A DNA stretch of 64,000 nt from Botryllus schlosseri. Its lineage: Eukaryota. Shown here in pieces: positions 918-61,197 of this stretch (positions are counted from its first letter, which is position 1; the number at the start of each line of letters is the position of its first letter). The stretch covers positions 22,942,001 to 23,006,000 of the forward strand of contig CM119372.1 in the NCBI GenBank assembly GCA_051294905.1, written 5' to 3'. A model generated the notes under the pieces. That model did not search any database and had not been told where the DNA came from. It was given only the letters and a program-made list of their open reading frames with translations. The position numbers and the translations under genes were made by a program.

Positions 918-2238
918 GTAATGGATCGAATGATTACAATGCAACTGCGTTATTATTACATTCTTTTCTGGTTACCCGACGATTGAGCATGCCACACATG
1001 AGCATGTGACATTTGACCTCTTGACTTTCTACCCCAAAACTTACCCCAACCTGAACTTGCACCCTCAGTCTTAAGAGTAGCTTGCTCAAATGTCCATGAC
1101 CAGTGCCTGTGTATTGCAAATCAAATGATACTTCGGCAATCTATTGTAGAAATCTTCTGTTTAGTTAATATGTAGGCTGGTTATGTAGTAACCAACTGGT
1201 GTCAGGTTAACACTGTGGCGTTGCAAGATGAAACAAATGTTCATTTTTGTTCTTGTATACAAAAAGTATGTTGAAAATCTGTGTCATCTATTTTGTTTGT
1301 GGTTCCAAGGTAACGAGAGTTGTCTTCACTCACATTGTCTGATGGGCCTTGCCGTCTGTCTTATGCTTGTGCCCCTGTGCAAATTCTTGTCAGCATTATT
1401 GAAAAGACCATGCTCGTGTTGAAGTTTTTCGAGAGAATCGAATTTAGAACCATAAGATGGAACAAAGGAAAAATACAATTGTTCAATGAGAATAGAAAAG
1501 GTTATATGAAACAGAAAAGGCGATAGTAACTCTTTGCCTATGTAATTGTGTCTGCATACCACAATCACGAATGCAGCTAACGGCTTTGATACCCTACTGC
1601 AAAATGTTAAGGTGTTTTGATATGTTACCTGATTTTTTCCACTTTTACAGAGTATAATGATATTCTACTTCATTTATTGAACGAAACGCTTCAATAGTAA
1701 CTTTGGTTATGCGTCACCATAGAATATTGATTGTGTCTTACCATTAAAAATCCAGCTTTGTCAGAGAACCCATTGGATTTGTCGACTAGACTCAGGTAAT
1801 TGTGTGGTGTTCGGTTTTTATTACTGTCAGACCTACTCTAAACGATTTTTGTAATCAATTCACTCTCTCTTTACTTTAAAGATCTTGATCAGTATTGATT
1901 AGATTTTAAACATAAACACGCATCATTTTCAATTGTGAAATCATCATAACAATAGGGTGATATAGTGCCTCGATCACAGTCACACATCTGTGCACTTATT
2001 TGTGGTAACGTTGAGCATTTTGCGTTACTCGCAGAGATGCCTATTGCTAATTTATCAATGATGGACTAATAAATTCTGCTCCGCCTCATTGTTATCTACT
2101 TTTTTAATACACCCGAGTACTGTGCAAAGCTGTCGTTTTCTTCTACTTGCGGATATGTTGCGCTTCTTCTACCTCCACAAAATACTATCATACTAACATG
2201 TCATGTCACCCTCGAGAACTCAACCTCCACTGTTCCAG

Positions 2239-2527
2239 GTACGCTACCACCGCTGTCACAGCTACCATCGTCCGTGAGGTTGCGCTGATGGCCGACGTGC
2301 CCATGCAAGATGTGATGGTCCGCAACGACTCTCCGTGTGGTACCACCATCGGGCCGATCCTGTCGGCGAAGCTGGGCCTGCGCACGTGCGATCTTGGGGG
2401 CGCTCAACTCAGCATGCACTCGTGTCGGGAGATGTGCGGTGTCAGCACTGTGCTGCATTGCGAACAGCTTTTCGAGTCTTTCTTCAACAACTTCCCGGCA
2501 GTCGACGCCAAGTTACACGTGGAGTGA
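2239..2527 (+). CDS. DNPEP: Aspartyl aminopeptidase (M18), terminal coding exon
   Basis: ttccag acceptor, phase 2 matching the previous exon (AG+G=Arg). Reads YATTAVT...VRNDSPCGTTIGPILS...DLGGAQLSMHSCRE...LHVE*, matching the DNPEP C-terminus. Confidence 0.95.
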
Positions 2528-3077: not shown

Positions 3078-4530
3078 CAGGGGCCGCATTTCAGCGTAGA
3101 GTCGTTATGGCCCATCTGGATGAGAAAAACTACAATCATGCGGCTGTCAAGGTCCACACCACACATATTTAAACTAGCGTGTGTCGGCGGCTGTCAATAC
3201 ACATTTGAATTAACGAATTGATTCCAAAATCTTTGAGAGATTTTAATTCAAATGAAAAAAATTTGCTAACGGGTACTTCGCAAGACGGAGAACCCTTGTG
3301 GTATTCTGTGCTTATCTCTGAATTCTTGAGTTATGCGTTGTTTGTCAAAGTTGCCAGTCGTAGAAGCAGAACGACCCCGTAGGCTTACTATATGCATCCA
3401 AATCGCGAGTATAAATGACAAGAAAAGTTATTGGAATTCGGTTTATATTCGCGCAGGGCGCGAAAATTTTCTCAACCTCATCGTCGATTTATTTCGATGA
3501 TAGAATTTCGTCGATAATATCGGAAGTTTCACTTATCATCATTGTCGAATATTTATCCATTTTCAGCCTACATGTTCAGATTAACCGATAGAGACGATGG
3601 AGCAGGGGTGTCTTCGAAAATTTTGGGCGCACTTCCGCTTATTGCTACTTCTTGACCTCCCAACAGGATTGTCGGTATAGTAAAAAAATATATATCGCCC
3701 AATCGCAGGGTTGTAATGACTCGAGTCGCGATTTTTTGGTGACTCGACTTGACTCGAGTCATTTTCTTAAAAATGCATGGAGACTCGACTCAGTGATTTT
3801 GTGCATTGACTCGACTTGTACCCGAGTCATTTTGTATGACTCGAGACTGGGTCTACCAAGACAGGCCTCTTATTGTAATTTCATAGCCTTTATAAAGGCT
3901 GTGGTAATTTCGAAGAATATTGAAGTCATCACGCTATTATATTATTTCGTCTATCAGTAGGCCTACTGATACTTGAAAATGCTACCAGAAAATGTTGAAA
4001 GTAAGGAAAATTAGTATTTTATGAATGTGAAGCATTCGATATCACCGAGCAGAGTTGTAAAAAGTGGGTTTTATATGACATTAAATCGGAACTGAACAGT
4101 CAACACAATGACTTGGACTCGAGTCAAAACACTATGACTAGACTCCGTGATTTGGACTCGTCGGTGATGAATTGAAAATGACTCGAGTCAAAGCTATAAA
4201 AGTGAGATTGACTTGTGACTTGTGACCCTGCCCAAACGTACCAGGGAAATCTTTCGTGAGACGCACACGATTACAACTTGGTATTTTTTGATGAGGCCCA
4301 TCATGTTCCTCTGCGGTTCACATTGCAACCGTGAATCGAGCTAAGCGCGAAGAATTTTTTTTCATTTGAATTAAAATCTCTCAAAGATTTTGGAATCAAT
4401 TCGTTAATTCAAATGTGTATTGACAGCCGCCGACACACGCTAGTTTAAATATGTGTGGTGTGGACCTTGACAGCCGCATGATTGTAGTTTACGTCTGTAT
4501 GCGCTATACGTCCGCATGTTGGCCACCTCA
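3078..4530. mobile_element. hAT-like non-autonomous element with a ~135-bp near-perfect subterminal inverted repeat (3127-3261 / 4356-4490)
   Basis: cagggg start, flanks agcctaat/ggcctaat (8-bp TSD, 1 mismatch), inverted arms read directly. Confidence 0.7.
3706..4230. mobile_element. hAT MITE rich in gactcgagtc subterminal repeats, nested in 3078-4530
   Basis: cagggt...accctg termini, TSD cccaatcg/cccaaacg. Confidence 0.8.
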
Positions 4531-5517: not shown

Positions 5518-6032
5518 TAGGGCTGGGCAAAATCGAGAACCTGGGTGATTCGATTCTGAATCACGTAAAATGCTTCGAGTCGAGTCGAGTATTCGAGTAT
5601 CACTCGTTATGACGTCACAACCTAGTGTACTATGTCAAAGTTCAAATATGTACCTTTTATGCCACCACGAAGAACATAATGCCTATTATCCGTCACATTC
5701 AAGATACTATGGTATTTTTTCGACCATCCCGATTTCATTGCATTTCTTGACAATGTTGTGGGATGATCATGACTTCGGAAATGTGTTATTTCCAGTAACG
5801 TTCCTAGCTTTGTACTATGTCTCGTATGCTGCGATACGGCCAATCAAGGTTTTAAGGCTTCCTCATTGGAAAATAGTATCAAAACTATAACTCTCATTAG
5901 TAAATTAACTTTCAGTTGCGAGAAGCGTATAATTTTAGTACTCGAAAAAATCGTCTTTTACCACTCGACTCGAATCATTAAAATTAATACTTGATTCAGA
6001 TTCGAGTACTCGAATCATTGTGCCCAGCCCTA
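5518..6032 (+). mobile_element. MITE family A (~515 bp, hAT-type)
   Basis: TIR tagggctgggca...tgcccagcccta, perfect 8-bp TSD gccgagac, four copies in the window. Confidence 0.92.
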
Positions 6033-7495
6033 GCCGAGACGCTTAAATAAAAACGACTCCGGGCTCCCCAAAAAACCAAGCTTTACGAAAAGATAGTTTT
6101 CCAGCAGGTACCGTGTCTATCTAACCCCGATATCGATTCTTTAGTGTTTAGTGGGTGGCCACTCTGCGGCAGTAAAAGGAAAATTATGCGGCCGTCGACA
6201 CTATTAAATCGGGTAGTGGCGCCTGGCGGCCGTCAATATGCAAATTGAATTTACGAATAACTACCTAACTGATGAGAGGTTTAAAGTATTCTTCAAATTT
6301 TCTTCGCACTACACACGGTTCAATGCTAGTTGCTTTTCGATTTTTATATGGTAATGTCCTTTGTAATCTGAACTCCACAGTACAGATGCGAACAGCAGAG
6401 GAAAATGTTGCGTCACATAAACAAAAAAAAATTATAATCGTGTTATCGACATCACGAAGGAAATTCGTTTCTGGTAGGCCTACGTTCGGTCGAATCTACG
6501 GTAATATATTTCCACTATATATACCGACAATCCTGATTGGAGGTCAAGAAATAACAACATGCAACAAAGGAAGATAATAACAATTGGTCCAACCAAAGTG
6601 CAGCACAGAATTAGTAGCTAACTTCCTTAAATTTTCGAAGACACCCCCTGCATCAACTCTACCGGGAAATCTGATAACATGGGCTGAGGATAAATATTTG
6701 ATAGTAATATGTGAAATTAGACAAATATTATTGACGAAATTCACTCATGAATATGAAAAAAATTTAGCGATTCCCCTAACTACAAAAGCGAATCCATGTG
6801 GTTATTCATAACATGACTACTCACGATTTCAGTGCGAATATAGTAAGCCGATATGAGTAAATAGATAAGTCCAGAGTTCACTGGCAATGGACATTGGTCA
6901 ATTGGACAGGACATGGACAGTTTAACGTGCATATTTGGCCTGCCTACATTGTGACTATGCACTAGAATGCGGCCGTCCGTGAATAGCAAAAAAGTTGGTC
7001 AACCCTGATGTATAGTTGCTGAAGAGTGTTGTCAGGTGTGGGCGCAGCTCATAGTTCAAAAAAGAATAATCGTGATATTTTTATTGTATTTGTATTTCTT
7101 CAATAAATTATCATTTCTTCTGTGGTAACTATACCCGTCGCTCATGTTAGAGAGCACAGCGATCTACTGACGTGGAGTTATCAAGACGTGGTTGTAAAAG
7201 TGCCTTGCCTATTTTTATCTCGATAATGCATTCATGCGGCCCGCGGCCTCTACGAATTTTGAAAAGTGGCCCGAGACCCGTTTTGAGTTGGCGACCCCTG
7301 CTCTACAGACATGTCAACGTATTTTAAACAGGTTTTAGACAGCTACCAATAGCGACGCCATCGCTCTCAATTTTTTGATAGCTTGCGGGCTTTTGCCGGC
7401 ATATCATCTCATTGAGGGCAAATCTTTTGTACTGAATGAGCGAGTCATTTATTTTACGCTTGCAAAAGTGAGGCTTTCCGGAGAATATTGACGCA

Positions 7496-8161
7496 ATGGA
7501 TAGCAAGACATTTCTAGTTTTTACTTTCTTTGTGGGTAGATGTATCTGGTGCGAAGCTGCAAACAAGCATAATGTTACCGACTTAGTCTATTTCGACATC
7601 GACATCGACGGCGAGCCGGCCGGAAGGATTGTATTTGGGTTGTTCGGAAGTGTCGTGCCGATAACTGTTGAGAACTTTATTCGATTAGCCGTTCACGACA
7701 AGGGCTTCGGTTACACTGGTAGCAGATTTACGTCAATGAGAAAAGCATATTATGTGGTCGGTGGAGCAATTCCCAGCGACGATTACTCGATTGGAAAGAG
7801 TTGGTTTGGAGCGTCATTTCCTGCTGAAAATTTCAAGCTGCGTCATTACGGACCAGGCTGGGTTAGCATGGCCAGGAATGTCGAGTCAAAGTTCGATTGT
7901 GCATTTTTCATCCTCACGAACGATCTGTGTGTCATGCGCGAATGGTTTGACGACCGTTACGTGGTGTTCGGTGCCGTCGTAAATGGAATGCGCACAGTAC
8001 TCAGAATTGAGAATGTGGAAACATTTGGTTACGCTCCAACGAATCCAGTGACGGTGAGGAACAGTGGTACTCTGAAACTTCGGGAAAAACTTGAAATCGA
8101 AGAGGGACACATTACCGGAGACATACTATCATCACAAGGGGAGTTATTGCCTGTTAGATAG
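7496..8161 (+). CDS. Intronless secreted cyclophilin-B/C-like protein (221 aa) with a degenerate PPIase active site
   Basis: Hydrophobic N-terminus. VYFDIDIDGEPAGRIVFGLFG..VPITVENF, ENFKLRHYGPGWVSMA and VVFGAVVNGM match cyclophilin B. The FHRV..FMIQGGD motif is replaced by FTSM..YYVVGGA. Confidence 0.9.
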   Translation: MDSKTFLVFTFFVGRCIWCEAANKHNVTDLVYFDIDIDGEPAGRIVFGLFGSVVPITVENFIRLAVHDKGFGYTGSRFTSMRKAYYVVGGAIPSDDYSIGKSWFGASFPAENFKLRHYGPGWVSMARNVESKFDCAFFILTNDLCVMREWFDDRYVVFGAVVNGMRTVLRIENVETFGYAPTNPVTVRNSGTLKLREKLEIEEGHITGDILSSQGELLPVR

Positions 8162-8283: not shown

Positions 8284-8797
8284 TAGGGCTGGGCAAAATC
8301 GAGTACCTGAGTGATTCGATTCTGAATCCCGTATTATGCTTCGAGTCGAGTCGAGTATTCGAGTATCAGACATTATGACGTCATAACAGAATGTAATATG
8401 TCAAAGTTCAAATATGTACCTTTTATGCCACAGCAAAGCATATGATGCCTGTTATCAATCACATTAAAGATGCTTTGATATTTTTTCGACCATACCGATT
8501 TCATTGCACTTCGTGACAAGGTTATGGGATGATTATGACTTCGAAAATGTGTTATTTAACGTAAGCTTTGTAGCTTTGTACTATGTTTCGTATGCTTCAA
8601 TGCAGCCAATCCGTGTTTTAAGCCTTCCACATTGGAAACTAGCATCAAAACTATAATTCTCGTTGATAAATTAACTTTCAGTAGCGAGGAGCTTGTAATT
8701 TCAGTACTCGAAAATATCGTCTTTTACTACTCGACTCAATCATTAAAATTAATACTCGATTCAGATTCGAGTACTCGAATCATTGTGCCCAGCCCTA
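8284..8797 (+). mobile_element. MITE family A copy, ~120 bp downstream of the cyclophilin stop
   Basis: Same TIRs and body as 5518-6032; partial TSD gttatg. Confidence 0.9.
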
Positions 8798-9910
8798 GTT
8801 ATGAGTAGAGGCCTTCAGTGAAAGACGTCAATATTAGTTCACTACCGAGGTACAGAACTATTCGCTGCCGCTTATTTCGACACACGACATATATCGATCG
8901 ACGCAGACTATTTCGGCAATGAAACTTATAGATATCACCAAAATCACCTGCATAGAAATGTCCGGAGCGGAAAGGGCGTCGCAGAAGTTCCCTTCAACCC
9001 CCTACTTGACAACAGAAACTGAACAGCGATTCCATCCTTTGCTACTAATATGAGAGCATATTCGAGAGTGAGTATTATGCGACACCAAGCTGACTTATAC
9101 TCGGACTGATGTTCAAGTGCTGTCTTCCAGTGTTAGTGTTATGTTCGCGGATTTACGTTTAGTATCCCTCAAATTTGCTTTGTATAGAGGACTGATATGA
9201 TTGGTACGAAATCATTATTTCCTCGTGTGACTTACTTTCATATTTATATCATGTGTTTCGCGATCTCCTGACTCATGTCTCCGAATAACTGAATAAATAC
9301 ATTGGATTAGTATTCTAAGTTTGTCGTATATGTGTGTATAGACTGTATACTGTTCGTACCAAGGCATTGAACGTAACAGGGCCATGTTACGTAGCATTTT
9401 TGAAAATTGTAAATTTTTTCATAACGCTAGTACACATTGCGTTGTGATGCCGAGATTTACGTGCATCGGTGTCAGCTTATTCTACAGCAGTTCGCTGAAT
9501 GCGTAGGCGTATTCGCATCAAACCTTATATGATTCGAACACAGCGGTATAGAAATTAACAGGTTTTCGTCTAGTGCCAAGTCTTTTTACTTCCACAACAA
9601 ATGATACTACAAATCGTGGTTTCAAGGCAGCCCGGACGGGGAAAAGTATAGAAACTATATTTCTCAATATAACTTTTTGTAGAAAGGGCATAGGCCTATA
9701 ATTCCAATATTTAGACTCTCATCACAATTCGTACTAGAAGCAGTTGGAAAAATACCCAATCAAATATAAAACTAACGCAGCTAAGTGTAGTTTTTCGTTC
9801 CATACTGACGGCGATGGTGGCGACCTACAACGAATCACGCAGCCAGGACTGAAAACGTGCTTTGCCAGCGCCCCCTCCATCTCTTATATATATATTCATA
9901 CTATATAGGG

Positions 9911-11788: not shown

Positions 11789-14700
11789 AAGAATGGGGAG
11801 AGAACGTTCAACTATATCAGCTGTTGGCTGACAACACCGAAGTTGTGCGTTCGTACACTGCTGGTGACACACCGTGTTGCTTCATTCTGACAATGGTGTA
11901 AAACGTACATCTCAATTTTTGTAAGAACCATGCAATGCCCACGTAGTTTTTCTTCACTTATGATATTGCGGTACGTTGAGCATGCCACCGTGTCAACCTA
12001 TTTGTTTCATCCGACTGTTTATTATTCACAATGGGCAGACAATGCGCCGTCTGCAACGGAAGGCCTATAAAGTAGGCTGCAAGCTGTAAAATGACAAACG
12101 ATAAGTTCACCGATTGTGCAAAATCTACGATACAAATGAAATGCAGGTTGCAAAATTTTTTGTCTTTGTAAACAATTTTGACATTTTTTGACCTAACGCT
12201 AAAATTTTGACCTTATTTTGACTTTTTTTGACATGTCAAAAAAATCACCCTAATGATGATGCATCTTAATTGTTTTTAATCACTTTGCTATAAATTCTCA
12301 TTTCTTGACCTACCATAATGATTCTCGATATATAGTCGCCATATATAATGGGAATCTCCAAACGTACCAGGACATTTCGTAAAGACGCACACGATTCCAA
12401 ATTGGTATTTCTTCGTGGAGCGCACCATGTTCTCTGTGGTCCGCATTTGTATTGAGGGACTCAAACTATGGAGACACTATGAAAAATCATGTCGCCCTGT
12501 CATGTCGAATAAAATTTGAAGTTGAATTGAAATCTCTCAAAAATTAGGGCGCCGATTTGTCAATTCAAATTGCATATTTTGACGGCCGTCAACAAATGCT
12601 AATTGAATTACGTGAAGATGGCCGGATAATTATATGCTTCTGCGGTCACAGCTTGGACTTGGACACCTCTGCGTTAGGACGATGACGTTAATACAACGAT
12701 GAAATCCATCACTTATTGCGAATTGAACTCATTACCCTTGGATTAACTATACCAACGGCCACCTGATCCTTACGCGGGGCCGCGACCAATTAGCGAGATT
12801 CGTCTGTGCAGTGCATGTGCAGTTGTGCACGCATATCCCATCGTATAATGTACCGCGACACGATCTCCCGCTGACATAATTGCGAAATTAGGTCATTGAT
12901 TGCCGCGCGTTAGGCATTCGTCGCTGGACATAGCAGTAACATGGCGCGACAATTCTGGAACACGAAAGACATACAAGAATTATGATTACAAACTCGCGCG
13001 GCCAATCGGTAATTATCCCTTACCGCCAACACAATGGGTTTTACTTAGTATTGAGTAGCTCGCATCGCGACAATTGGTTGCTGATTAAAACATTGATTAA
13101 GACTGCATTGCTGCATTTCCCGATTTACGTTCGCAAAACATAATTCGGTTGGTATTATGGGCACTGGAATAAATTCCTACTAGCAGGCATACACAATAAA
13201 ACACTGTTCAACTTTGCGCTCCGAGAATATTCATCACAAAAATGGCTCACAAAATATTTTAAACGCGGCTTGCGGCCCTCATTGAAGCAAAGAATGCACT
13301 TTAATTTGTAGACGGTGAACGTATATTTGGTCGCCAAATCGCGATAGGAGATGGTGCTTCTCAAAGTGCGCGATGAAATCTACGTTTCTGACGATGAGGT
13401 CGAATTGGTACGTCTAATAAGGATCGTTAGTTTGCTGAAATCAGCATCAGTGCGCTGTGCGAAAAATACATAGTAGTGATCAATTTTATCGGACTGTACA
13501 ATCGGCCGGCAAAGTTACGCTGATAACGATACAAGAGACATGCCGCAGACCTGGAATAATTACAATTACAGGGTGCGCTAGTCATACCTAAATACCCAGA
13601 TTCGGCAATGCCAACGAGCACAATTTATTCAGACGCTGGCATAAGTTTTAATCAAAAAGATACATGAACACAAACAATATTCAGATTGTTCGTGTTCAGA
13701 GATTGTTACTGTTTGGCGAAAGTGTTTCTGCGGACGGTTGCAGGCCTGCATGCGAACGCGCTAAATCAAACCACCAACGATATGAGATATCGGTGACCCA
13801 TTTCGCATACAAATGATTCTCGCTAATTTGCAGTACGCAGCATCGATAATACGAATTAGTGAATTGGCATTTCAAAATAACGGGATTTCTAGTTATAAAT
13901 GAGAAACTCACTGGCTATGCATCAGGGGTTTTTATGCCGACAATGCGAGGCCCGGGGCCTACGGCCGACGAAAGCCCCGATGAGCCAGTCGAATTTGATC
14001 GTAAAATGTTGCGCTTCTAATTATCCACGTGTTATTGCAGTAAGAGCTATATGGGCGCATGCCACGACCAGACATGGGGTAATCGCGATTAGTAATCGTA
14101 ATCGATTACGACGATTAGGCCTACATCATTTTGAAGTAATCGTAATCGCAATTGATTACATTCGAACAAAATCCGAAGTAATCGTAATCGACTACTTCCC
14201 ACATCTAATCGATTTCTTTGTGAAAGAACGATTACTTTTTATTCGTACAAGTACTATGGCATAAACTGAATATTCGTGAACAAGGAAGAGATATTATACC
14301 AGGTTAGTGATAGCACAAACGTCTGATTGTCAAACGCCATAACTCATTATTACGCCAGAAGTATGAGCTTTGCTCGTCTTTGCGTAAGAAGTATCCAATC
14401 CACACATAGTAAATAGATATTCGATGGACATTTTAGTGTGATTGTAACTGTAAGAACACCGACCGTGGTGTATATCAGGTTATCAATACACTGCAGACGC
14501 CACTACTTCGCAGCAGGACATTGATCACCACTCTGCCTATAGTTTAAAATAGTAACTTATGTGTTGATGTTTGGTTATGCTTAGTTAAACGCAGTTTTAC
14601 CGTTGCTGCTTGGCGATCAGTATGCCTAAGTAAGTACGTACACCTGACAAAGATTCGGAATTTTGTACTCGTCGAATAAAAACCTTACGGTTTCCACAAC

Positions 14701-15532
14701 GAAGCATTACAAGTAAACAGCTTCTGATATCATAACCGAGCCGTGCTGAGCTGTTTCTCGTAACACCAGCTTGTACTATCTGTATTAAATTGAAGGCAGA
14801 ATTTTTATGTTCACTCTATCTTATTCTCATATGACTACTTGAAACGGGCGCAAATCGTTATATCACAGTTCGTTACTCAGCATTTGGACCTGCCGCCATT
14901 TAGCCATCCGCTTATATATAGCCTGACATGTTAGCGTGGGTTGTAGCTAGAATCAGAACCAAAACAGCAATCCGTTCCCCAGTCCAAACGTTGGTCAATT
15001 TTTAAAACTGAATTTTGTCAATAATATAGTTATTTGCATTATATTACTAATCTTTTTTAATCCTCTCTCAGCCCCGAGTGTCAGAATTACCTGTAGAGCT
15101 GGGGCATGTAATTCAAAATTATAACATCTGGTATGTTGTTATAATTACTTTATTGTATGTTGTTAATTCGTGACCTCCGGTCTGTTATGTAATCAAAATA
15201 TTTCGTGAGACGCAACGACAAATCGCAATGCCTTTATTCCTTTGTGGATGCGCCGGATTGCATTTGCATTGTGGGCTCAGATTGGAAGGACAGGACTGTT
15301 AGTCACGCGCACCCAGCGCGGCTATTGAAAATGGACGGAAATACTAAGTTTCGGCCAAGGTAATTCTTTGGTAGCATACCCCGTGGAATTGAGTGTTGGC
15401 CGAAACTGCATATGTCTTTTGGTGTGTTGTGGGCTCGTGGCGCGGTAATGACCGACTTCGAAATGCGTATTCCCATAAATTACGCATGTTTTTCTTGAGG
15501 GGGAGAGGTATGCACCAAGCTATTTACTAGAG

Positions 15533-21999: not shown

Positions 22000-22515
22000 T
22001 AGGGCTGGGCACAATGATTCGAGCACTCGAATCTGAATCGAGTATTAATTTTTATGATTCGAGTCGAGTAGTAAAAGACGATTTTTTCGAGTACCGAAAT
22101 TATACGCTGCTCGTCACTGAAAGTTAATTTATCAACGAGAATTGTAGTTTCAATACTAATTTTCACTGTTGAAGCCTTGCAACCTTGATTGGCGGTATAC
22201 CGAGATATCGTAGCAATACCAAACATATAGTACAAAGGCGGTTACTGGACGTAGCACATTTCCGAAGTCATGGTTATCCCACAACATTGTCACCAGGTGG
22301 AATGAATGGTCGAAAAAATACCAAAGTATCTTTTATGAGATGGATAACAGGCATTATAATCTTTGTGGTGGCATTTACGGTACGTATTTGAACTTTGACA
22401 TGTTACAATCTGTTATGACGTCATAATGGCTGATACTCGATTACTCGACTCGACTCGAAGCATATTACGTGATTCAGAATCGAATCACTCAGGTACTCGA
22501 TTTTGCCCAGCCCTA
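22000..22515 (-). mobile_element. MITE family A copy (inverted)
   Basis: Family A TIRs, perfect TSD attatcca. Confidence 0.92.
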
Positions 22516-23985: not shown

Positions 23986-26245
23986 CAGGGCCGTAACAGC
24001 ACTTCGTCAGCCCCCCCCCAAAACTTTGGTCTTGGGCCCCCCATAGGGTTATAGACCCAACTTCTGGGGGGCTTCGCCCCCCAGACCCCCCTCCGGCGAT
24101 ACACTTTTACCGCTATTCATCATTTTTATTCGGACTTTGTTTAGTGGATCAGCTTTTGACGCCTAAGCGCGCGAAGCGCGGAAAATTTCTAGAATTCATG
24201 ATTTCATCGGTCAGTATGATCGGGAATTGCATAAATTGTTATCAATTTTTATCTTCTCTCTGCTCACGTAATCAGATTTGCCGGTAGAGCTGAGTGAGGT
24301 GTGTTTGAAAAGGTAGGACCACTCAATATTAATTAAACATCTTCGGGGGTATACCCGTTGGCAGGAACGAAACAGCACCTGGTCAGGCCCCTAAAAACGT
24401 GGGTCTTGGGCTCCCATAGGGTGATGAAACGACCCCCCCCCCATCACGTTGTTCGCGTTTGTCACGAAATTATCTGTACTATACTGTGAGCCAGCGCGAT
24501 GCGCGAAAATTTTCGATAATTTATGATGAAATCGATCAATCAGATCGGTGATTGCATATATATTATGCTATCAATTTATTGTCCTCTACTCACGTAATTA
24601 GATTTACCGGGAGGGCCCGTAAATAATCATTAAACATCTTCGGGCTGGCGGACACGTTGATATGACTTCGTCACATGATGTTATTTCGTGACTTCAAGTC
24701 TGCTATATCAAGAAATATAGAATCGTCCAAATGTAGGCTTCTAAACTAAGAGACGCACACCATTTCAAATTGGTATTTCTTCACTGGCATAAATTTTTTC
24801 CCAACGGGATGGTATTTGTCTTGTGGGGTTCAGATTGCAAAGACAGGAACATTCGGCGCCAGTCATTTAGGCGCCTATGGACAATTAAACCTATATGTAT
24901 TTTGTAGGGATGGTGTGAACCCCAGAAAGGTTCAGGTTCGCGTGAACGCGAACCTTTTTGAAAGGTTCTGTGTGAACACGAACGTGAACCTCATGACGTC
25001 ACGTGACGTCATATTGCTAATTACAAACTTACATTTCAGTGATGTGATAGCCTATAACAATGTGAACGTCGACAAACGTCAAGTGTGTCAACTGCGGCAA
25101 TCAAATCATATAATAATCCCATAAAATCAATATCTTCCGTCGCTTTGCCAACGAGGACTTGCAAGCGAATATAAGCTTACGACTTAACGATCTAGGCCAG
25201 ACCAGACAATGCATTCGGCGTCTGAGCATTGCTACGTTGATATTGCGCAGAGCGTAAAACGGGTTTCCATACCTGCTACCGATATTGTCCCATTAAAAAG
25301 TTATATAGCAGTAGCCAACACCCCAATCGCGACGATTTGTTTTTTATGATGCAATAAACACATGAAATCAAGATTGACCCCGTACGGCAGCTAGATTTTT
25401 ATTACCAGACAACGATATCAGTTTCATTGATTGGCTGAATAAGCATCATTCGTTGGCTGAATAAGCATCATTCGCTAAGTCAGGGATATCCCTGGCTAAG
25501 TTGAGTACCTACGTATAGCGTATTTCCCTCTTGATCTTGTGTGATTGCGGGTCAAGCTCACATCACAGAGTCACTAAATATTCACAAACGTAAAGCTGGA
25601 TATTTCGAGCAAACATTTGTAACCAAGCATGTAGAATTTTTGAGATTTTCAAGGTGCATGGTCGTTCAGTGTTGATTTGTTTTTATGCTGCCAGCGCCAC
25701 GCATAGAGTGGCTCGCAGTTGACATGCAATAAATTTCAACCAAAGATGTTATAATGAAGTGAAAATTGTAATATATGAAAAAGTGCAGAACCTACAGTGC
25801 AGAACCTACCAAGGTTCGTTTGTGAACGTGAACCCCTAAATTTCGAAGGTTCACACACAGAACGCGAACGTGAACCTCACGTTCACACCATCCCTAGTAT
25901 TTTGTATATATAACGAAGTCTTCGGTCTGCATAAGGGCATAGACCTTTTTGGCCAAGCTTTTCTCGCTGCCGATCGTTCTGGCACACCTCTTGGAGTCGC
26001 ATGTTATATGGCTAAAACTTGATTGTATGTCTTGGTGGGTCGGGGCGCGGTAATGGTCCAATACCCAATACTATAGATAAATGGCTACTTTAATTCGCGC
26101 GCAGCGCGAAAAAAATTTGAAAAAATTGCATAAAATTTCAAAAAATACTCTATGATTTATGCTGATTCAGGAAATAATTTTGGGCCCCCTTCGAGCTCGG
26201 GCCCCCCCCAATTGGGGGGTTTGGGGTGCGGCAGTTACGGTGCTG
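23986..26245 (+). mobile_element. hAT-type element family D (~1.3 kb without its nested insert)
   Basis: TIR cagggccgtaac / gttacggtgctg, perfect TSD catattcc; uninterrupted homolog at 59909-61197. Confidence 0.9.
24905..25896 (+). mobile_element. MITE family C, nested in family D
   Basis: Family C TIRs, perfect TSD gtattttg; the empty site is visible in the 59909 copy (~60850). Confidence 0.93.
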
Positions 26246-30284: not shown

Positions 30285-31424
30285 GTGGCCAGATAGCGCA
30301 GTGGTATAATCCATGGCCGCAACACCAATGGTTCCTACCAAAGTGTTGAAGGTTTATCTAGCTAGGGTTGCCATACGTCGGGAATTTCCCGGACATGTCC
30401 GGAATTTCACTGTTCAAATTAGCGTCCGGGAGGAATTTCTAAAATATGCCAAATGTCCGAAATTTTGAAGACTTGACGTAGGCTCATAACTTTTACGTAA
30501 ATCAGCATAAAAACAATATTTTTTGGGGAATATTTATGCTGATGCATGATATTTTTCTTCGCACTGCGCGCGATTTACTATCACAATTATTGATTATAAT
30601 ATGGAGACTACCACCCTCGCAAAAACTGCAATAAAATATAAACAAAAGCAACCTTCATTTACTGGAATAAGCCTAATTGTAATCGCAATTATGGGACAAC
30701 GGTATATTCCTAGAGATCGATAAGGCCGCTTAAATGTTTAATTCAAAGATAATGGTTCCAAACGATGGTGGGTTCGTTTGCCTTTATTCTGGGGTTTACG
30801 CATATGTTAAACGTAATCAGCTTCCAAAATAGCCCGTGAGTAAGTCTGGGCAAAGGTGCTGACTTCTTTTAGTAATCAGCTCATCAAATTTTGATCTGGG
30901 TCACGGAACATTTTCAAATTGGAGATGGAGTCGCGACCATAAAGGGTTAGAAACCAGTGGATGTGGGTTTCTTATAAGGCTCCGTGGTGCGCACTGGCAA
31001 GTGACATAGATTACCCTATAGTGTTGGCTCAAAATCATTGTGTATTTGGGCGGGAGGGGGCTGAAAACATGTGTTTTCGGTCCCGGTTACATAACACACA
31101 GCCACATACTCCTGAACCGGATCGTGACCACCTCTGGTCTATGAGCAAAGCTTTGCTAGTGTGACGTCATAACTCATTTTGAAATCCACTAGTGGGCGCT
31201 AAAAAGTGTCCGGAATTTGGGTTGCTGAAATATGGTAACCCTAATCTAGGCTCCTCCTGGCCGCCTCATCCGCGTAAGCGGTGTCTTACAAAAAGCCTAG
31301 AAGTGGGCCGTGCTACAAGTTGGCAGATACGGAATCAAAAATGTAGAAAATCGGCCTGGTGTAAATGACCGTTGTAGTCGACAAGCACCATGCATTCATG
31401 AATACCTCAAACAAACAAACAAAC
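30285..31424 (+). mobile_element. SINE family 1, interrupted by element 30363-31243
   Basis: Head at 30285, body resumes at 31244, (caaa)n tail, ctctac.ggtag flanking repeat. Confidence 0.8.
30363..31243. mobile_element. hAT-type MITE (tagggttgcc / ggtaacccta)
   Basis: TIRs present; atctag duplicated on both sides. Confidence 0.8.
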
Positions 31425-32618
31425 TCTACAGGTAGATTTGACCATCGGGGGCTGAGAGAGGATTAAAAACTGAGAGTAATATAATGCAATTACTAATAGA
31501 TATATTATTGACGAAATTCAGTCTTCAACTTGAGATTGCCACCCTATGGGGCCAAAGACCAACGTTTGGACTGAGGGACGAATTGCTGTTTTGGTCCTGA
31601 TTCCAGCTACATCCCAAGCTGTATAAGCACATGGCCATGGCGGTAGATCCCAATGTTGAGTAAATAATTGTGAAATAACGATTGTCACCCGTTTCAAGTA
31701 GTGTCATATGAGAACAAGAAGAAGCGAACATAAAATTCTGCCTTCAACTTAATCGACTTAATACTGCAAGCTGCAGTTAGGAGAAACGGCAAAAACGGCC
31801 CGGTCATGATATATATCATCAGCTGTTGATTTTACTGCTTCGTTGTGGAAACCCCAATGTTTTATTTGACGAGTAGAAAATTTCAAATCTTTGTCCGGTG
31901 TCCAACGTACTAGATAGGCCTACTGCTCGCCAAGCAGCAACGGTCAAACTGCGTTTAATTAAGCATAACCAAACATCAACACATAAGGTACTATTTTAAA
32001 CTAGGCAGAGCGGAGACAAATTATACTGCTGCAAGGTAGTGGCGTGTGGAACGTGTTGATAACCTGATATAAAGCACGGCAGGTGTTCTTACAATCACAC
32101 TAGTGTACGACGTACGTACATCGAACATCTATTTACTGTGGATACTTCTTACGCAATGACGCGCAAAGCTAACTGCGGCTTCTGACGTAATAATGAGCAG
32201 TGGCGTTTGAGAATCAGACCCTTGTGCTATCACGAATCTTGTATAATAGCTCTTCCTTGTTCACAAATGTTCACTTGTTCAGTTTGTGTCATAGTCCTTG
32301 TACAAATAAAAAGTAATCGTTCTTTCACAGAGAAATCGATTAGATATGGGAAGTAGTCGATTACGATTACGATTACTTCGGATTTTTTTCGAATGTAATC
32401 GATTGCGATTACGATTACTTGAAAATGATGTAATCGTCGTAATCGATTACGATTACTAATCGCGATTACCCCATGTCTGATTACTATGTAGCTCAGGTAA
32501 AATTAATTAATTTGATATTAATATTATGCTAATGAAATAATCATTCTACGCTCCTTAAACTTCCAAGAGGAACTTTCGGTGGCCTCGTCAAAGATCGGTA
32601 AAATTTAAAGAAACGTAC

Positions 32619-45362: not shown

Positions 45363-45876
45363 TAGGGCTGGGCAAAATCGAGTACCTGAGTGATTCGATT
45401 CTGAATCACGTAATATGCTTCGAGTCGAGTCGAGTAATCGAGTATCACTCATTATGACGTCAAAATAGAATGCGCCATGTCGAAGTTCAAATATGTGCCT
45501 TATATGCCACCACAAAGAACATAATGCCTGTTATCTTACATTAAATATACTTCGATAATTTTTTCGACCATACCGATTTCATTGCACTTCTTGACAATGT
45601 TGTGGGATAACATGACTTCAGAAATGTGCTATTTCCTGTAACGTTCGTAGCTTTGTACTATATCTGGTATGCTGCGACACGGCCAATCGAGGTTATCGGG
45701 CTTATTCAGTGGAAAAATAGTATCAAAACTATAATTCTCGTTAGTAAATTAATTTTCAGTTGCGTGGAGCATATACTTTCAGTACTCGAAAAAATCGTCT
45801 TTTACTACTCGACTCGAATCATTGAAATTAATACTCGATTCAGATTCGAGTACTCGAATCATTGTGCCCAGCCCTA
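45363..45876 (+). mobile_element. MITE family A copy
   Basis: Family A TIRs, perfect TSD cccgcgac. Confidence 0.92.
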
Positions 45877-57519: not shown

Positions 57520-57800
57520 CTGAAAAGGATACGCAACATGGATTGCGATCGGTCCATCACGCATTGTATATGTAATATATAGTCTTGCAAGGAGCCAGCA
57601 ATATTATGTTCATCCGTTTTTTCCTTCTTTAGATTTCATCGTAATTTGGGGTGCGAGGGATTTTGCACTATTTTTTTTTAACAGGAGCAATGATGCATAT
57701 ATTATATATATACATTAGGGGTCTTCAAAAATGACTTTTTTTCTCAAATCGTAGTGGCTACTTGATAAAATTGTCAGGTTACCTAATTTAAGCCTACACA

Positions 57801-58255
57801 TTTTTTTTAATTTTTTTTAGGGGTAACCTGGATGAACCGCAGTAAACCTCCACCCCGTTACGCTTGTGGCAGCCCCATGGTATTACACCATGTTACTATT
57901 GCCACAAGCGCCTTAATAGGTCACTCTTGGGTCCAAAGTACCCAAGAGCTCCCATCTTCAGGTTGCTTCTTGTTTGCTTCTGTTACCTTCTAAGTTTCGT
58001 CACTTGTTAGGTGCAAACGGCTGTCACAAGCAGGCTTTGGCTGGGGGCGTCTGCAGAGGCTTGTCCCGCCGCCACCATACTTGTGACTGGGATACTGCCC
58101 CGTCAAGCGGTTTCAGATCCCGGTTTGGAATATGAAGGCCAAGGGCCATACTCTTCCAAGGTGTGCAAGTGATTGGAAGTATCGGTTGTACCACGAGGGT
58201 TTCGCACCGCCCAGCGTCCAGTAAGCCGATGCTTACCTTAATACAGCCAAATACT
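57801..58255 (-). mobile_element. Unclassified poly(A)-tailed retroposed element with 3' stem-loops
   Basis: T-rich tract at 57801-57818, cctacaca duplicated on both sides, hairpins at 57860-57911 and ~57924-57948. Confidence 0.6.
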
Positions 58256-58263
58256 CCTACACA

Positions 58264-58349
58264 TTTTTTTATTTTAAAAGATTGGACGCTTCACGATTTT
58301 GCGTGTCATCCTTGCGCAAGGATGACACGCAAAATCGTGAAGCGTCCAT
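58264..58349. pseudogene. U6: U6 snRNA 3'-end retrocopy arranged as a perfect 66-bp palindrome
   Basis: tgcgcaaggatgacacgcaaaatcgtgaagcgtcca matches the U6 3' segment and is present on both strands about cttgc|gcaag; T-rich tract and 13-bp TSD atactcctacaca. Confidence 0.88.
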
Positions 58350-59012
58350 ATACTCCTACACACCAAATTTGGTCCAATTCCAAGCAGTGGAGCGGAGTTA
58401 TTACCGTGGAAAATTTTGGATTTGAATACAGTAGTATTCACGGTGGGCACCACTATAATAAATAATTAAAGAATTGGTCACCGTAAATACTATTTTATTC
58501 ATAATCCGAATTTTTCGACGGCAATAACTCCGCTTCCACTGGTTGGAATTGAACCATATTTGGTGAACATCGTTTCTATTGACAACCTAACGCTTTCATG
58601 GGGTGAACTAAAAAAAATTCAAATTTTTTGTTATTTATTTTTATATAATAAATAGAAACTTTCTTCTCCTGTAACAATGCGGCTACTGGTTGGAATTGAA
58701 CCAAATTTGGTGTGTAAGCTTAAATTAGGTAACCTAACAATTTTATCAAGTAGCCACTACGATTTGAGAAAAAAAGTCATTTTTGAAGACCCCTAATATA
58801 CATACCTTTGATAGGAGGCGTCACAATTTCATCAGGGCTTACGGCTTGCTAAGAATAAGTGAGATCCTTTTCCTTTGTTAATGTTCAAAGTCCATATATA
58901 ACCGAGATGTACGGATTCGATACCCTATCGGTTATCGTTATATGCATGATGATGAAGATTTCTAATAACGTTTCATGGTCGTCTATACGTTGGTGACATT
59001 TCGACAACTCAC

Positions 59013-59908: not shown

Positions 59909-61197
59909 CAGGGCCGTAACAGCACTTCGTCAGCCCCCCAAACTTTGGTCTTGGGCCCCCCATAGGGTTATGGACCGAACTTCTGGGGGGCTCCGCCCCC
60001 CAGACCACCCTCCGGCGATACCCTGTTTACCGCTATTTACCGTATTGGTTGGGAGTTTGTTTAGTGAATAAGCTTTTGTCGCCTATGCGCGCGAAGCGCG
60101 GGAAATTTCTATAATTGATGATTGAATCGGTCAGTATGATCGGGAATGGCATATATATTGTTATAAATTTTGATCTTCTATCTGCTCACGTAATCAGATT
60201 TGCCGGTAGAGCTGGGTGAGGTGTGTTTGAAAAGGTAGGACCACTCAATAATAATTAAACATCTTTGGGCGTATACCCGTTGGCAGGAACGAAACAGCAC
60301 CTCGTCAGGCCCCCAGAAACGTGGGTCTTGGGCTCCCATAGGCTGATGAAACGACCCCTCCATCACGTTGTTCGCGTTTGTCACGAAATCATCTGTACTG
60401 TATTGTGAGCCAGCACGAAGCGCGAAAATTTTCGATAATTTATGATAAAATCGGTCAATTAGATCGGCGATTGCATATATATTATGCTATCAATTTATTG
60501 TCCTCTCTACTCACGTAATTAGATTTACCGGTAGAGCTGAGTGAAGTGTCTTGAAAACGGGCGGGCCCGTAAATAATTAAACATCTTCGGGGGGGGGGGG
60601 CGGACCCGTTGATATGACTTCGTTAGATGATGTTATTTTGTGACTTCCAGTCTGCTATATCAAAAAATATAGAATCGCCCAGACGTAGGCTTCTAAACTA
60701 AGAGACGCACATGATTTCAAATTGGTATTTCTTCACTGGCATAAAATTTTTCCCAGCGGGATGGTATTTGTCTTGTGAGGTTCGGATTGAAAAGACAGGA
60801 AAATTCGGCGCCAGTCATTTAGGCGCCTATGGACAATTAAACTTATATGTATTTTGTATATTTAACGAAGTCTTCGGTCATCATAAGGGCATAGACCTTT
60901 TCGGCCAAGGTTTTCTCGTTGCCGATCGTTCTGGCACACTTCTTGGAGTCGCATGTTATATGGCCTAAAACTTGATTGTATGTCTTGGTGGGTCGTGGCG
61001 TGGTAATGGCCCAATACCCAATAATAAATAGAAATGGCTACTTCAATTCGCGCGCAGCGCGAAAAAATTTTGAAAAATATGCGTAAATTTTCAAAAAATA
61101 CTCTGATTTATGCTAATTCACGAAATAATTTCGGGCCCCCTTCGAGCTCGCCCCCCCCCCCAATTGGGGGGTTTGGGGTGCGGCAGTGACGGTGCTG
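59909..61197 (+). mobile_element. hAT-type element family D (uninterrupted)
   Basis: Family D TIRs, perfect TSD ctcacaca. Confidence 0.9.

What the first reader, a model, noticed from the sequence alone, without database searches (positions are those of the whole stretch)
57793..58362. Two successive retro-insertions at the identical nucleotide of a MITE TIR: possible site-specific retrotransposition system
Seen: the intact right TIR implies an empty site aagc(c/t)tacaca|ccaaatttgg. On the left, cctacaca occurs three times (57793, 58256, 58355). The first two copies are each followed directly by a T-rich tract that begins a minus-strand poly(A)-tailed insert (455-bp structured element; U6 piece). 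The site is not the T-rich L1 consensus. Established: target-primed reverse transcription produces poly(A) plus TSD, and some non-LTR clades (e.g. Tx1) target other repeats. Inference: an endonuclease/RT specific for this MITE's TIR mobilised both its own derivative and a cellular snRNA.
Basis: partly seen in the sequence, partly recalled or inferred. Interest (0 to 1): 0.72.

Follow-up and report, generated by a model that had tools for sequence, protein, structure and literature searches.

The report
Leader-headed SINE and U6 sharing site
A short jumping element that begins with the sea squirt's spliced-leader RNA, and then a folded-back scrap of U6 RNA, were both copied into the same base of a small DNA transposon; this resembles a known kind of targeted insertion, but whether it was targeting or one double accident is still open.

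Summary
A 518-bp MITE (8-bp TSD, hAT-like) was opened at base 85/86 of its left arm. First came a 457-nt non-coding element. Second came a poly(A)-tailed U6 3' piece with a perfect 33+33-nt inverted duplication. Its 13-nt flanking repeat includes 5 nt of the first insert's head. Chance reuse of one base is negligible. Two readings stay close: re-cutting by a sequence-preferring Tx1-type endonuclease (0.47, of which MITE-directed about 0.3), or one coupled event re-primed at the unsealed nick (0.40). The decisive flank census was not possible: no genome is held, no read data were obtained, and no second copy was found. The closest precedent is SINEU-3/Tx1-Mar, which inserts in tandem around a TSD in Mariner-N4 (Kojima 2015). 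The scan has already noted SL-headed retroelements and a U6 chimera elsewhere in this genome. New variant of a known kind.

The parts
57708..57715 (.). Left 8-bp target-site duplication of the MITE (ATATACAT)
   Evidence: nested 2-, 4- and 6-nt readings also fit, 8 is the longest
57716..57800 (+). MITE left terminal inverted repeat, outer 85 nt, up to the nick
57793..57800 (+). Target repeat copy 1 (CCTACACA); its 3' end is the inferred primer for insert 1
   Evidence: priming is inferred
57801..57819 (-). A-rich tail of insert 1
57820..58236 (-). Body of the SL-headed SINE-like element. Non-coding, GC 52.5% for the element against 33% for the MITE. Long hairpins at 57915-57956 and 57861-57910 and a terminal hairpin ending at 57820. 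Begins with the donor GTAAGC
   Evidence: 0 Pfam hits for 4 stop-free frames tested
58237..58257 (-). Spliced-leader exon piece forming the head of insert 1: 20 of 21 nt identical to the 3' 21 nt of the 25-nt Chordata SL consensus
   Evidence: 1 match in the window, 0 of 100 shuffles; consensus from Table 1 of PMC3795323
58251..58263 (+). 13-nt repeat copy a: 5 nt of the SL head plus target repeat copy 2
58264..58279 (-). Tail of insert 2: four T (U6 oligo-U end) followed by an A-rich tract
58275..58325 (-). 3' part of U6 snRNA, 5'-truncated at the internal stem-loop
   Evidence: Rfam RF00026, 33.1 bits, E 3.8e-6, gathering score 44
58316..58349 (+). Inverted duplicate of the U6 piece (second arm of a perfect 33+33-nt palindrome)
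   Evidence: Rfam U6 on + strand E 9.3e-4
58350..58362 (+). 13-nt repeat copy b, containing target repeat copy 3
58363..58684 (+). Rest of the MITE left arm and MITE interior, with an inner 207-nt imperfect palindrome (58361-58565)
58685..58795 (-). MITE right terminal inverted repeat, intact; holds the uninterrupted version of the site (58705-58721)
58796..58803 (.). Right 8-bp target-site duplication of the MITE

Best explanation
SHOWN by the sequence: an SL-headed, poly(A)-tailed, non-coding element and a poly(A)-tailed U6 piece sit head to tail at one nick (after TACACA on the + strand) in a MITE arm, each with its own flanking repeat, and the U6 repeat includes part of the first element's head. 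INFERRED: a LINE ORF2 protein with a sequence-preferring endonuclease, probably Tx1-type, nicked the + strand at this non-T-rich site and copied the SINE-like RNA. The cDNA joined the target through 2 nt of homology (GG of the leader), giving a 6-8-nt TSD. That left the DNA 3' of the nick and 8 nt 5' of it unchanged, so the site was regenerated at the head of the insert. The same kind of enzyme later cut it again and copied a polyadenylated U6 RNA, with the second-strand cut 13 nt away. That cDNA stopped at the short palindrome of the U6 internal stem-loop and was copied back on itself (snap-back), or met a second U6 cDNA primed from the other strand, before joining. Whether the preferred site is this MITE family (about 0.3) or a short motif that the MITE happens to hold (about 0.17) is open.
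For: Two nested repeats of different length (8 and 13 nt) and two tails are the formal marks of two primings. Under uniform insertion a second hit on the same base and strand has a chance of 7.8e-6 within the window; with assumed genome-wide copy numbers the expected count is 0.002-0.02 (the copy numbers are my assumptions). No T precedes the nick, so the poly(A) could not anneal there. The same architecture is described for SINEU-3: a small-RNA-headed SINE in a non-autonomous DNA transposon, often in tandem sandwiching a TSD and read as sequential insertion, moved by Tx1-Mar (PMC4494074 sections 14-16). Poly(A)-tailed U6 copies with TSDs (PMC4476161 passages) and cDNA snap-back junctions (PMC11371274 passages) are documented.
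Against: One locus only; no other copy of the element, the MITE or a partner LINE was found. The identical site in the right arm is empty. U6 on the 5' side is exactly where coupled template switches put it. The U6 piece ignored the intact SL donor about 27 nt away in the SINE head, so a donor-specific enzyme, as earlier unchecked notes propose for SL-headed elements here, does not fit the second event. The site is no more like the SL head than 10% of 5710 background windows.
Confidence: 0.47

Rival explanations
1. One coupled episode. After the SINE cDNA had joined the target and been filled in over TACACA, the nick was still unsealed or was re-opened by the same bound ORF2 protein. The free 3' end primed a poly(A) U6 RNA. 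The 13-nt repeat marks how far the other strand had been extended (5 nt into the head). The shared base then says nothing about family-wide specificity.
For: It explains same base, same strand and same orientation with no extra assumption. U6 is the usual extra template at LINE 5' ends (two-thirds of repeat-associated snRNA copies, PMC4476161 section 6; 'almost always U6' in R2-driven insertions, PMC11371274). PMC4476161 proposes that ORF2p freed after a first insertion can recruit polyadenylated snRNA. The second insert is short and rearranged, and the nearby SL donor was not used.
Against: The chimeras described in the sections I read have one TSD pair around the whole insert and direct fusion. 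Here 6 nt of target DNA lie between the U6 tail and the SINE head, and U6 has its own complete 13-nt repeat. I read no description of this exact product from a single event.
Confidence: 0.4
2. The U6-plus-SINE pair formed at another locus and was copied here as one read-through RNA.
For: One outer 8-nt repeat does flank the whole 562 nt. Read-through 5' extensions are described for SINEU-2 (PMC4494074 section 17).
Against: It needs the source locus to have the same target spacer, which again implies targeting. It leaves the 5 extra shared bases at the outer junction unexplained. No second copy was found.
Confidence: 0.08
3. The U6 palindrome and third repeat are an assembly or amplification artefact.
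For: Perfect zero-spacer palindromes are a known product of amplification chimeras (my own knowledge). No read-level check was obtained.
Against: The segment has its own A-rich tail and an exact 13-nt flanking repeat (chance 2.1e-8 per position), and the MITE arm resumes in register after it.
Confidence: 0.05

Closest known systems
SINEU (U1/U2-headed SINEs) with Tx1-Mar LINEs in Mariner-N4_AMi, crocodilians (Kojima 2015, PMC4494074; abstract and sections 14-18 read, supplements not seen)
   Same: Short non-coding retroposon with a head from a Pol II small RNA; inserted in a non-autonomous DNA transposon; tandem insertion sandwiching a TSD; no recognisable Pol III promoter.
   Different: The head is spliced-leader RNA, not U1 or U2; the host is an 8-bp-TSD hAT-like MITE, not Mariner; the second insert is a U6 piece; preference over many copies and the partner LINE are not shown here.
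Polyadenylated U6 pseudogenes and U6/LINE chimeras (Doucet et al. 2015, PMC4476161; passages and section 6 read)
   Same: U6 3' end with an A-rich tail and a TSD, lying 5' of a retroelement in the same orientation.
   Different: No L1 T-rich cleavage site; target DNA lies between U6 and the element; U6 is 5'-truncated and carries an inverted duplicate.
Snap-back and extra-template 5' junctions of R2-driven insertions (PRINT; PMC11371274, passages read)
   Same: The cDNA end primes synthesis on the cDNA itself before joining; U6 is the usual extra template.
   Different: Engineered system with a restriction-like endonuclease at rDNA; here a natural insertion with TSDs and an unidentified enzyme.
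SL-headed LINEs and SINEs noted earlier by this scan in the same genome (e1-7803915, e1-7880425, e1-7882894, e1-7804379) and a U6-U1-LINE chimera (e1-7880426); unchecked AI notes
   Same: Spliced-leader head continuing past the donor; poly(A) U6 on the 5' side of an SL-headed element.
   Different: Those notes give the SL donor as preferred target; here neither insert is at an SL donor, and a sequence look-up found no look-alike of this element among them.

Membership tests
SINEU / Tx1-Mar system | Head derived from U1 or U2 snRNA | tested here: not met
   The head matches the chordate SL; no U1 or U2 match among 14 Rfam hits in 57600-58900
SINEU / Tx1-Mar system | Short (under 500 bp), non-coding, TSD-flanked retroposon | tested here: met
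   457 nt with tail; 0 Pfam hits in 4 frames tested; TSD
SINEU / Tx1-Mar system | Target is Mariner-N4_AMi or a related Mariner | tested here: not met
   Host MITE has a longest TSD of 8 bp and TAGGG ends; a 2-nt TA reading also fits formally
SINEU / Tx1-Mar system | Preference for the DNA-transposon site across many independent copies | not testable with these tools
   No genome held; no other copy found
SINEU / Tx1-Mar system | Tandem insertions sandwiching a TSD | tested here: met
   described for SINEU-3
SINEU / Tx1-Mar system | Autonomous Tx1 LINE with the same target or head | not testable with these tools
   No match to the element elsewhere in the window; collection scans gave 2 chance hits
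Classical Pol III SINE | Internal A and B boxes or a tRNA, 7SL or 5S head | tested here: not met
   No B box by a recalled pattern, one loose A-box hit; no tRNA, 7SL or 5S Rfam hit
SL RNA-derived head | SL exon followed by its GT donor (not a trans-spliced mRNA copy) | tested here: met
   20 of 21 nt to the consensus, then GTAAGC
Complete SL RNA gene | Full exon and an Sm site in the intron part | tested here: not met
   The 5' bases of the consensus are missing; no Sm-like site by a recalled pattern
U6/LINE template-switch chimera | Direct fusion of U6 to the element inside one TSD pair | tested here: not met
   Target DNA lies between them and U6 has its own 13-nt repeat
Polyadenylated U6 pseudogene | U6 3' end, A-rich tail, TSD | tested here: met
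Polyadenylated U6 pseudogene | L1-type T-rich cleavage site | tested here: not met
   Nick after TACACA
hAT-type MITE (8-bp TSD rule recalled) | Terminal inverted repeats with an 8-bp TSD | tested here: met
   a second TAGGG-ended family in the window shows 8-bp TSDs in 3 of 4 copies
hAT-type MITE (8-bp TSD rule recalled) | Ends shared with an autonomous hAT transposase element | not tested
   No autonomous element was available

The most novel reading that the evidence does not exclude
A Tx1-type LINE in this ascidian-like genome recognises base 85/86 of this hAT-like MITE arm as its safe harbour, drives a spliced-leader-RNA-headed SINE family there, and is relaxed enough to carry polyadenylated U6 to the same base. 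This would be an invertebrate-chordate parallel of SINEU/Tx1-Mar with a new head class and a new target.
Probability: 0.3. Interest if true: 0.55.

Novelty: new variant of a known kind. Interest (0 to 1): 0.37.

Why it matters
If targeting is real, it adds a sequence-specific LINE endonuclease with a new target and a SINE class with a spliced-leader head. Six paper searches (listings only) showed no description of such a SINE in a tunicate; subscription papers and Repbase were not searchable. If the coupled reading is right, the locus is a natural record of re-priming at an unsealed TPRT nick followed by cDNA fold-back, and a warning that two inserts at one base do not prove site specificity.

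Tried and rejected
No whole genome is held, so the flank census could not be run. Public runs holding the stretch were listed (20 rows, 11 studies, 1 with half the words or more; no RNA holder listed); no read data were obtained from them, so they are not used as evidence. A pattern from the element's terminal hairpin gave 2 metagenome loci; both were chance, matching only 13 nt of the element. Head, tail and MITE-end patterns gave 0 hits in viral contigs and prokaryote genomes. Look-ups in earlier notes by sequence or place gave nothing. Rfam at gathering level found 0 matches in the window; the miRNA-type hits at E-value level reflect the perfect hairpins and were rejected. Idea that the site mimics the spliced leader: rejected as unsupported, since 10% of 5710 background windows score as well. 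A donor-like hexamer (GTA[AG]GC) 3 nt from the nick is rare (68 in 128,000 positions) but was noticed after the fact, so it is a lead only. Idea that insert 1 is a truncated LINE 3' UTR or ORF remnant: its 5' end is the SL head and 4 frames gave no Pfam hit, though a LINE origin of the 3' hairpins stays possible. Hammerhead ribozyme in the body: core-like words occur but Rfam gave no hit; rejected. U6-first order: it needs the 5 extra shared bases to come from a separate leader fragment; less economical. PMC3074122 and PMC3691228 (passages) gave no SL letters.

Full report
Setting. The window is repeat-rich eukaryotic DNA (41% GC) with a cyclophilin ORF and an M18 aminopeptidase piece. No genome is held for it. 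Earlier notes of this scan call the genome a sea squirt's (unchecked), and the chordate spliced-leader match below agrees.

Observation. CCTACACA stands at 57793, 58256 and 58355, and once more elsewhere on the + strand. The first two copies are followed by T-rich tracts. The host is a MITE at 57716-58795 with an 8-bp TSD (nested 2-, 4- and 6-nt readings also fit). Its arms differ at 4 of 94 outer positions. Removing 57801-58362 gives 518 bp and restores the left arm in register with the right, which holds the uninterrupted site. A scan of both strands for T tracts with a flanking repeat of 8 nt or more found 2 cases in 64 kb, both here.

Insert 1. On the minus strand it starts at 58257 with 21 nt that match the Chordata spliced-leader consensus at 20 positions (consensus from Table 1 of PMC3795323, passages read). 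The donor GTAAGC follows at once, so this is not a copy of a trans-spliced mRNA: the head continues into what would be SL RNA intron. How far the SL-derived part runs I could not test. The element has no B box or Sm-like site by recalled patterns, no Pfam hit in 4 frames tested, 52.5% GC, and a structured 3' half (z -4.29 overall; z below -3 in the last 3 of 9 windows; helices). It is best called an SL-headed SINE-like retroposon. The two G that start the head are also the last two bases of the 8-nt repeat, so the TSD is 6 nt plus 2 nt of junction homology, or 8 nt.

Insert 2. This is the U6 3' end with four T and an A-rich tail (Rfam U6, E 3.8e-6, below gathering), followed by a perfect inverted copy of 33 nt with no spacer. 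The centre falls in the U6 internal stem-loop region, on a short palindrome that the Rfam consensus also has. The flanking repeat is exact for 13 nt and contains 5 nt of the SL head, so insert 2 went into DNA that already held insert 1. Two routes give this centre: the cDNA folds back and copies itself (snap-back, described for R2-driven insertions in PMC11371274, passages), or a second U6 RNA is primed from the other strand (twin priming with snRNAs, PMC4476161 section 6). The junction letters at 58346-58351 match the Rfam U6 end, which slightly favours the second route; the first needs one changed or added base. The species' U6 end would decide this.

Why the same base? Uniform chance is 7.8e-6 within the window, and 0.002-0.02 expected cases genome-wide under assumed copy numbers. 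Reading A: a sequence-preferring endonuclease re-cut the site that the first TSD regenerated. For it: two tails, two repeats of different length, a nick with no T to anneal the poly(A), and a close precedent. In crocodilians 313 of 347 near-full-length SINEU-3 copies flank Mariner-N4_AMi, tandem copies sandwiching a TSD are read as sequential insertions, and Tx1-Mar LINEs share the target (PMC4494074, sections 14-18; supplementary figures not seen, and they hold the target alignments). Against it: one locus, an empty twin site in the right arm, and no use of the intact SL donor in the SINE head. Reading B: one episode in which the unsealed or re-opened nick primed U6. For it: U6 is the usual extra template on the 5' side of LINE insertions, and ORF2p freed after a first insertion has been proposed to take up polyadenylated snRNA. 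Against it: the chimeras described there have no target DNA inside and a single TSD pair. I put A at 0.47 (MITE-directed about 0.3, short motif about 0.17) and B at 0.40. These odds are judgement, not a computed result.

What could not be settled. No other copy of the element or the MITE lies in the window. Collection scans gave 2 chance loci and otherwise nothing. Sequence look-ups in earlier notes were empty. No read-level data were obtained, so alleles, expression and the reality of the palindrome in reads are unchecked. The idea that the site mimics the leader failed its control (10% of 5710 windows score as well).

Known versus new. It works like SINEU with Tx1-Mar but is not a member: the head and the host differ. 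The U6 insert meets the marks of a polyadenylated U6 pseudogene except the L1 cleavage site. Six searches of the held library (listings only) showed no SL-headed SINE of a tunicate. This scan, however, has already noted SL-headed LINEs and SINEs and a U6-U1-LINE chimera on other DNA of this genome, so the head class is not new to the scan. What is particular here is the non-donor site in a MITE arm, the readable order of events and the folded-back U6. Verdict: real, a new variant of a known kind, specificity unproven, interest 0.37.

Noticed in passing
window 5518-6033, 8284-8798, 22000-22515, 45363-45876: Four copies (83-89% alike) of a roughly 515-bp TAGGG-ended TIR element; 3 of 4 have a perfect 8-bp TSD, the fourth 6 bp. 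A second hAT-like MITE family.
   Followed up: partly
window 7472-8161 (+): Uninterrupted 229-codon frame with a whole cyclophilin domain (PF00160, E 2.4e-27); single-exon gene or retrocopy, not examined.
   Followed up: no
window 2108-2527 (+): C-terminal part of an M18 aminopeptidase (PF02127, E 2.4e-30).
   Followed up: no
window 3127-3264 and 4353-4490: 138-bp inverted repeat pair, 99% complementary, about 1.1 kb apart; probably a young TIR element.
   Followed up: no
window 58361-58565 and 58648-58716: The MITE interior is itself a 207-nt imperfect palindrome, and the subterminal motif next to the nick occurs three times in the element.
   Followed up: partly
window 58221-58238 (-): The splice donor of the SL head can pair with the bases just behind it in a 7-bp hairpin (centroid, local fold; not among the pairs above 0.8). 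It might shield the donor from use.
   Followed up: partly
window 57792-57797 and 58714-58719: A donor-like hexamer (GTA[AG]GC on the element's sense strand) starts 3 nt from the nick in both MITE arms; noticed after the fact, worth checking in the flank census.
   Followed up: partly
window 23986-24906 / 59909-60858 and 14069-15098 / 31424-32479: Larger dispersed repeats (about 0.9-1.1 kb, 78-88% alike), not characterised.
   Followed up: no
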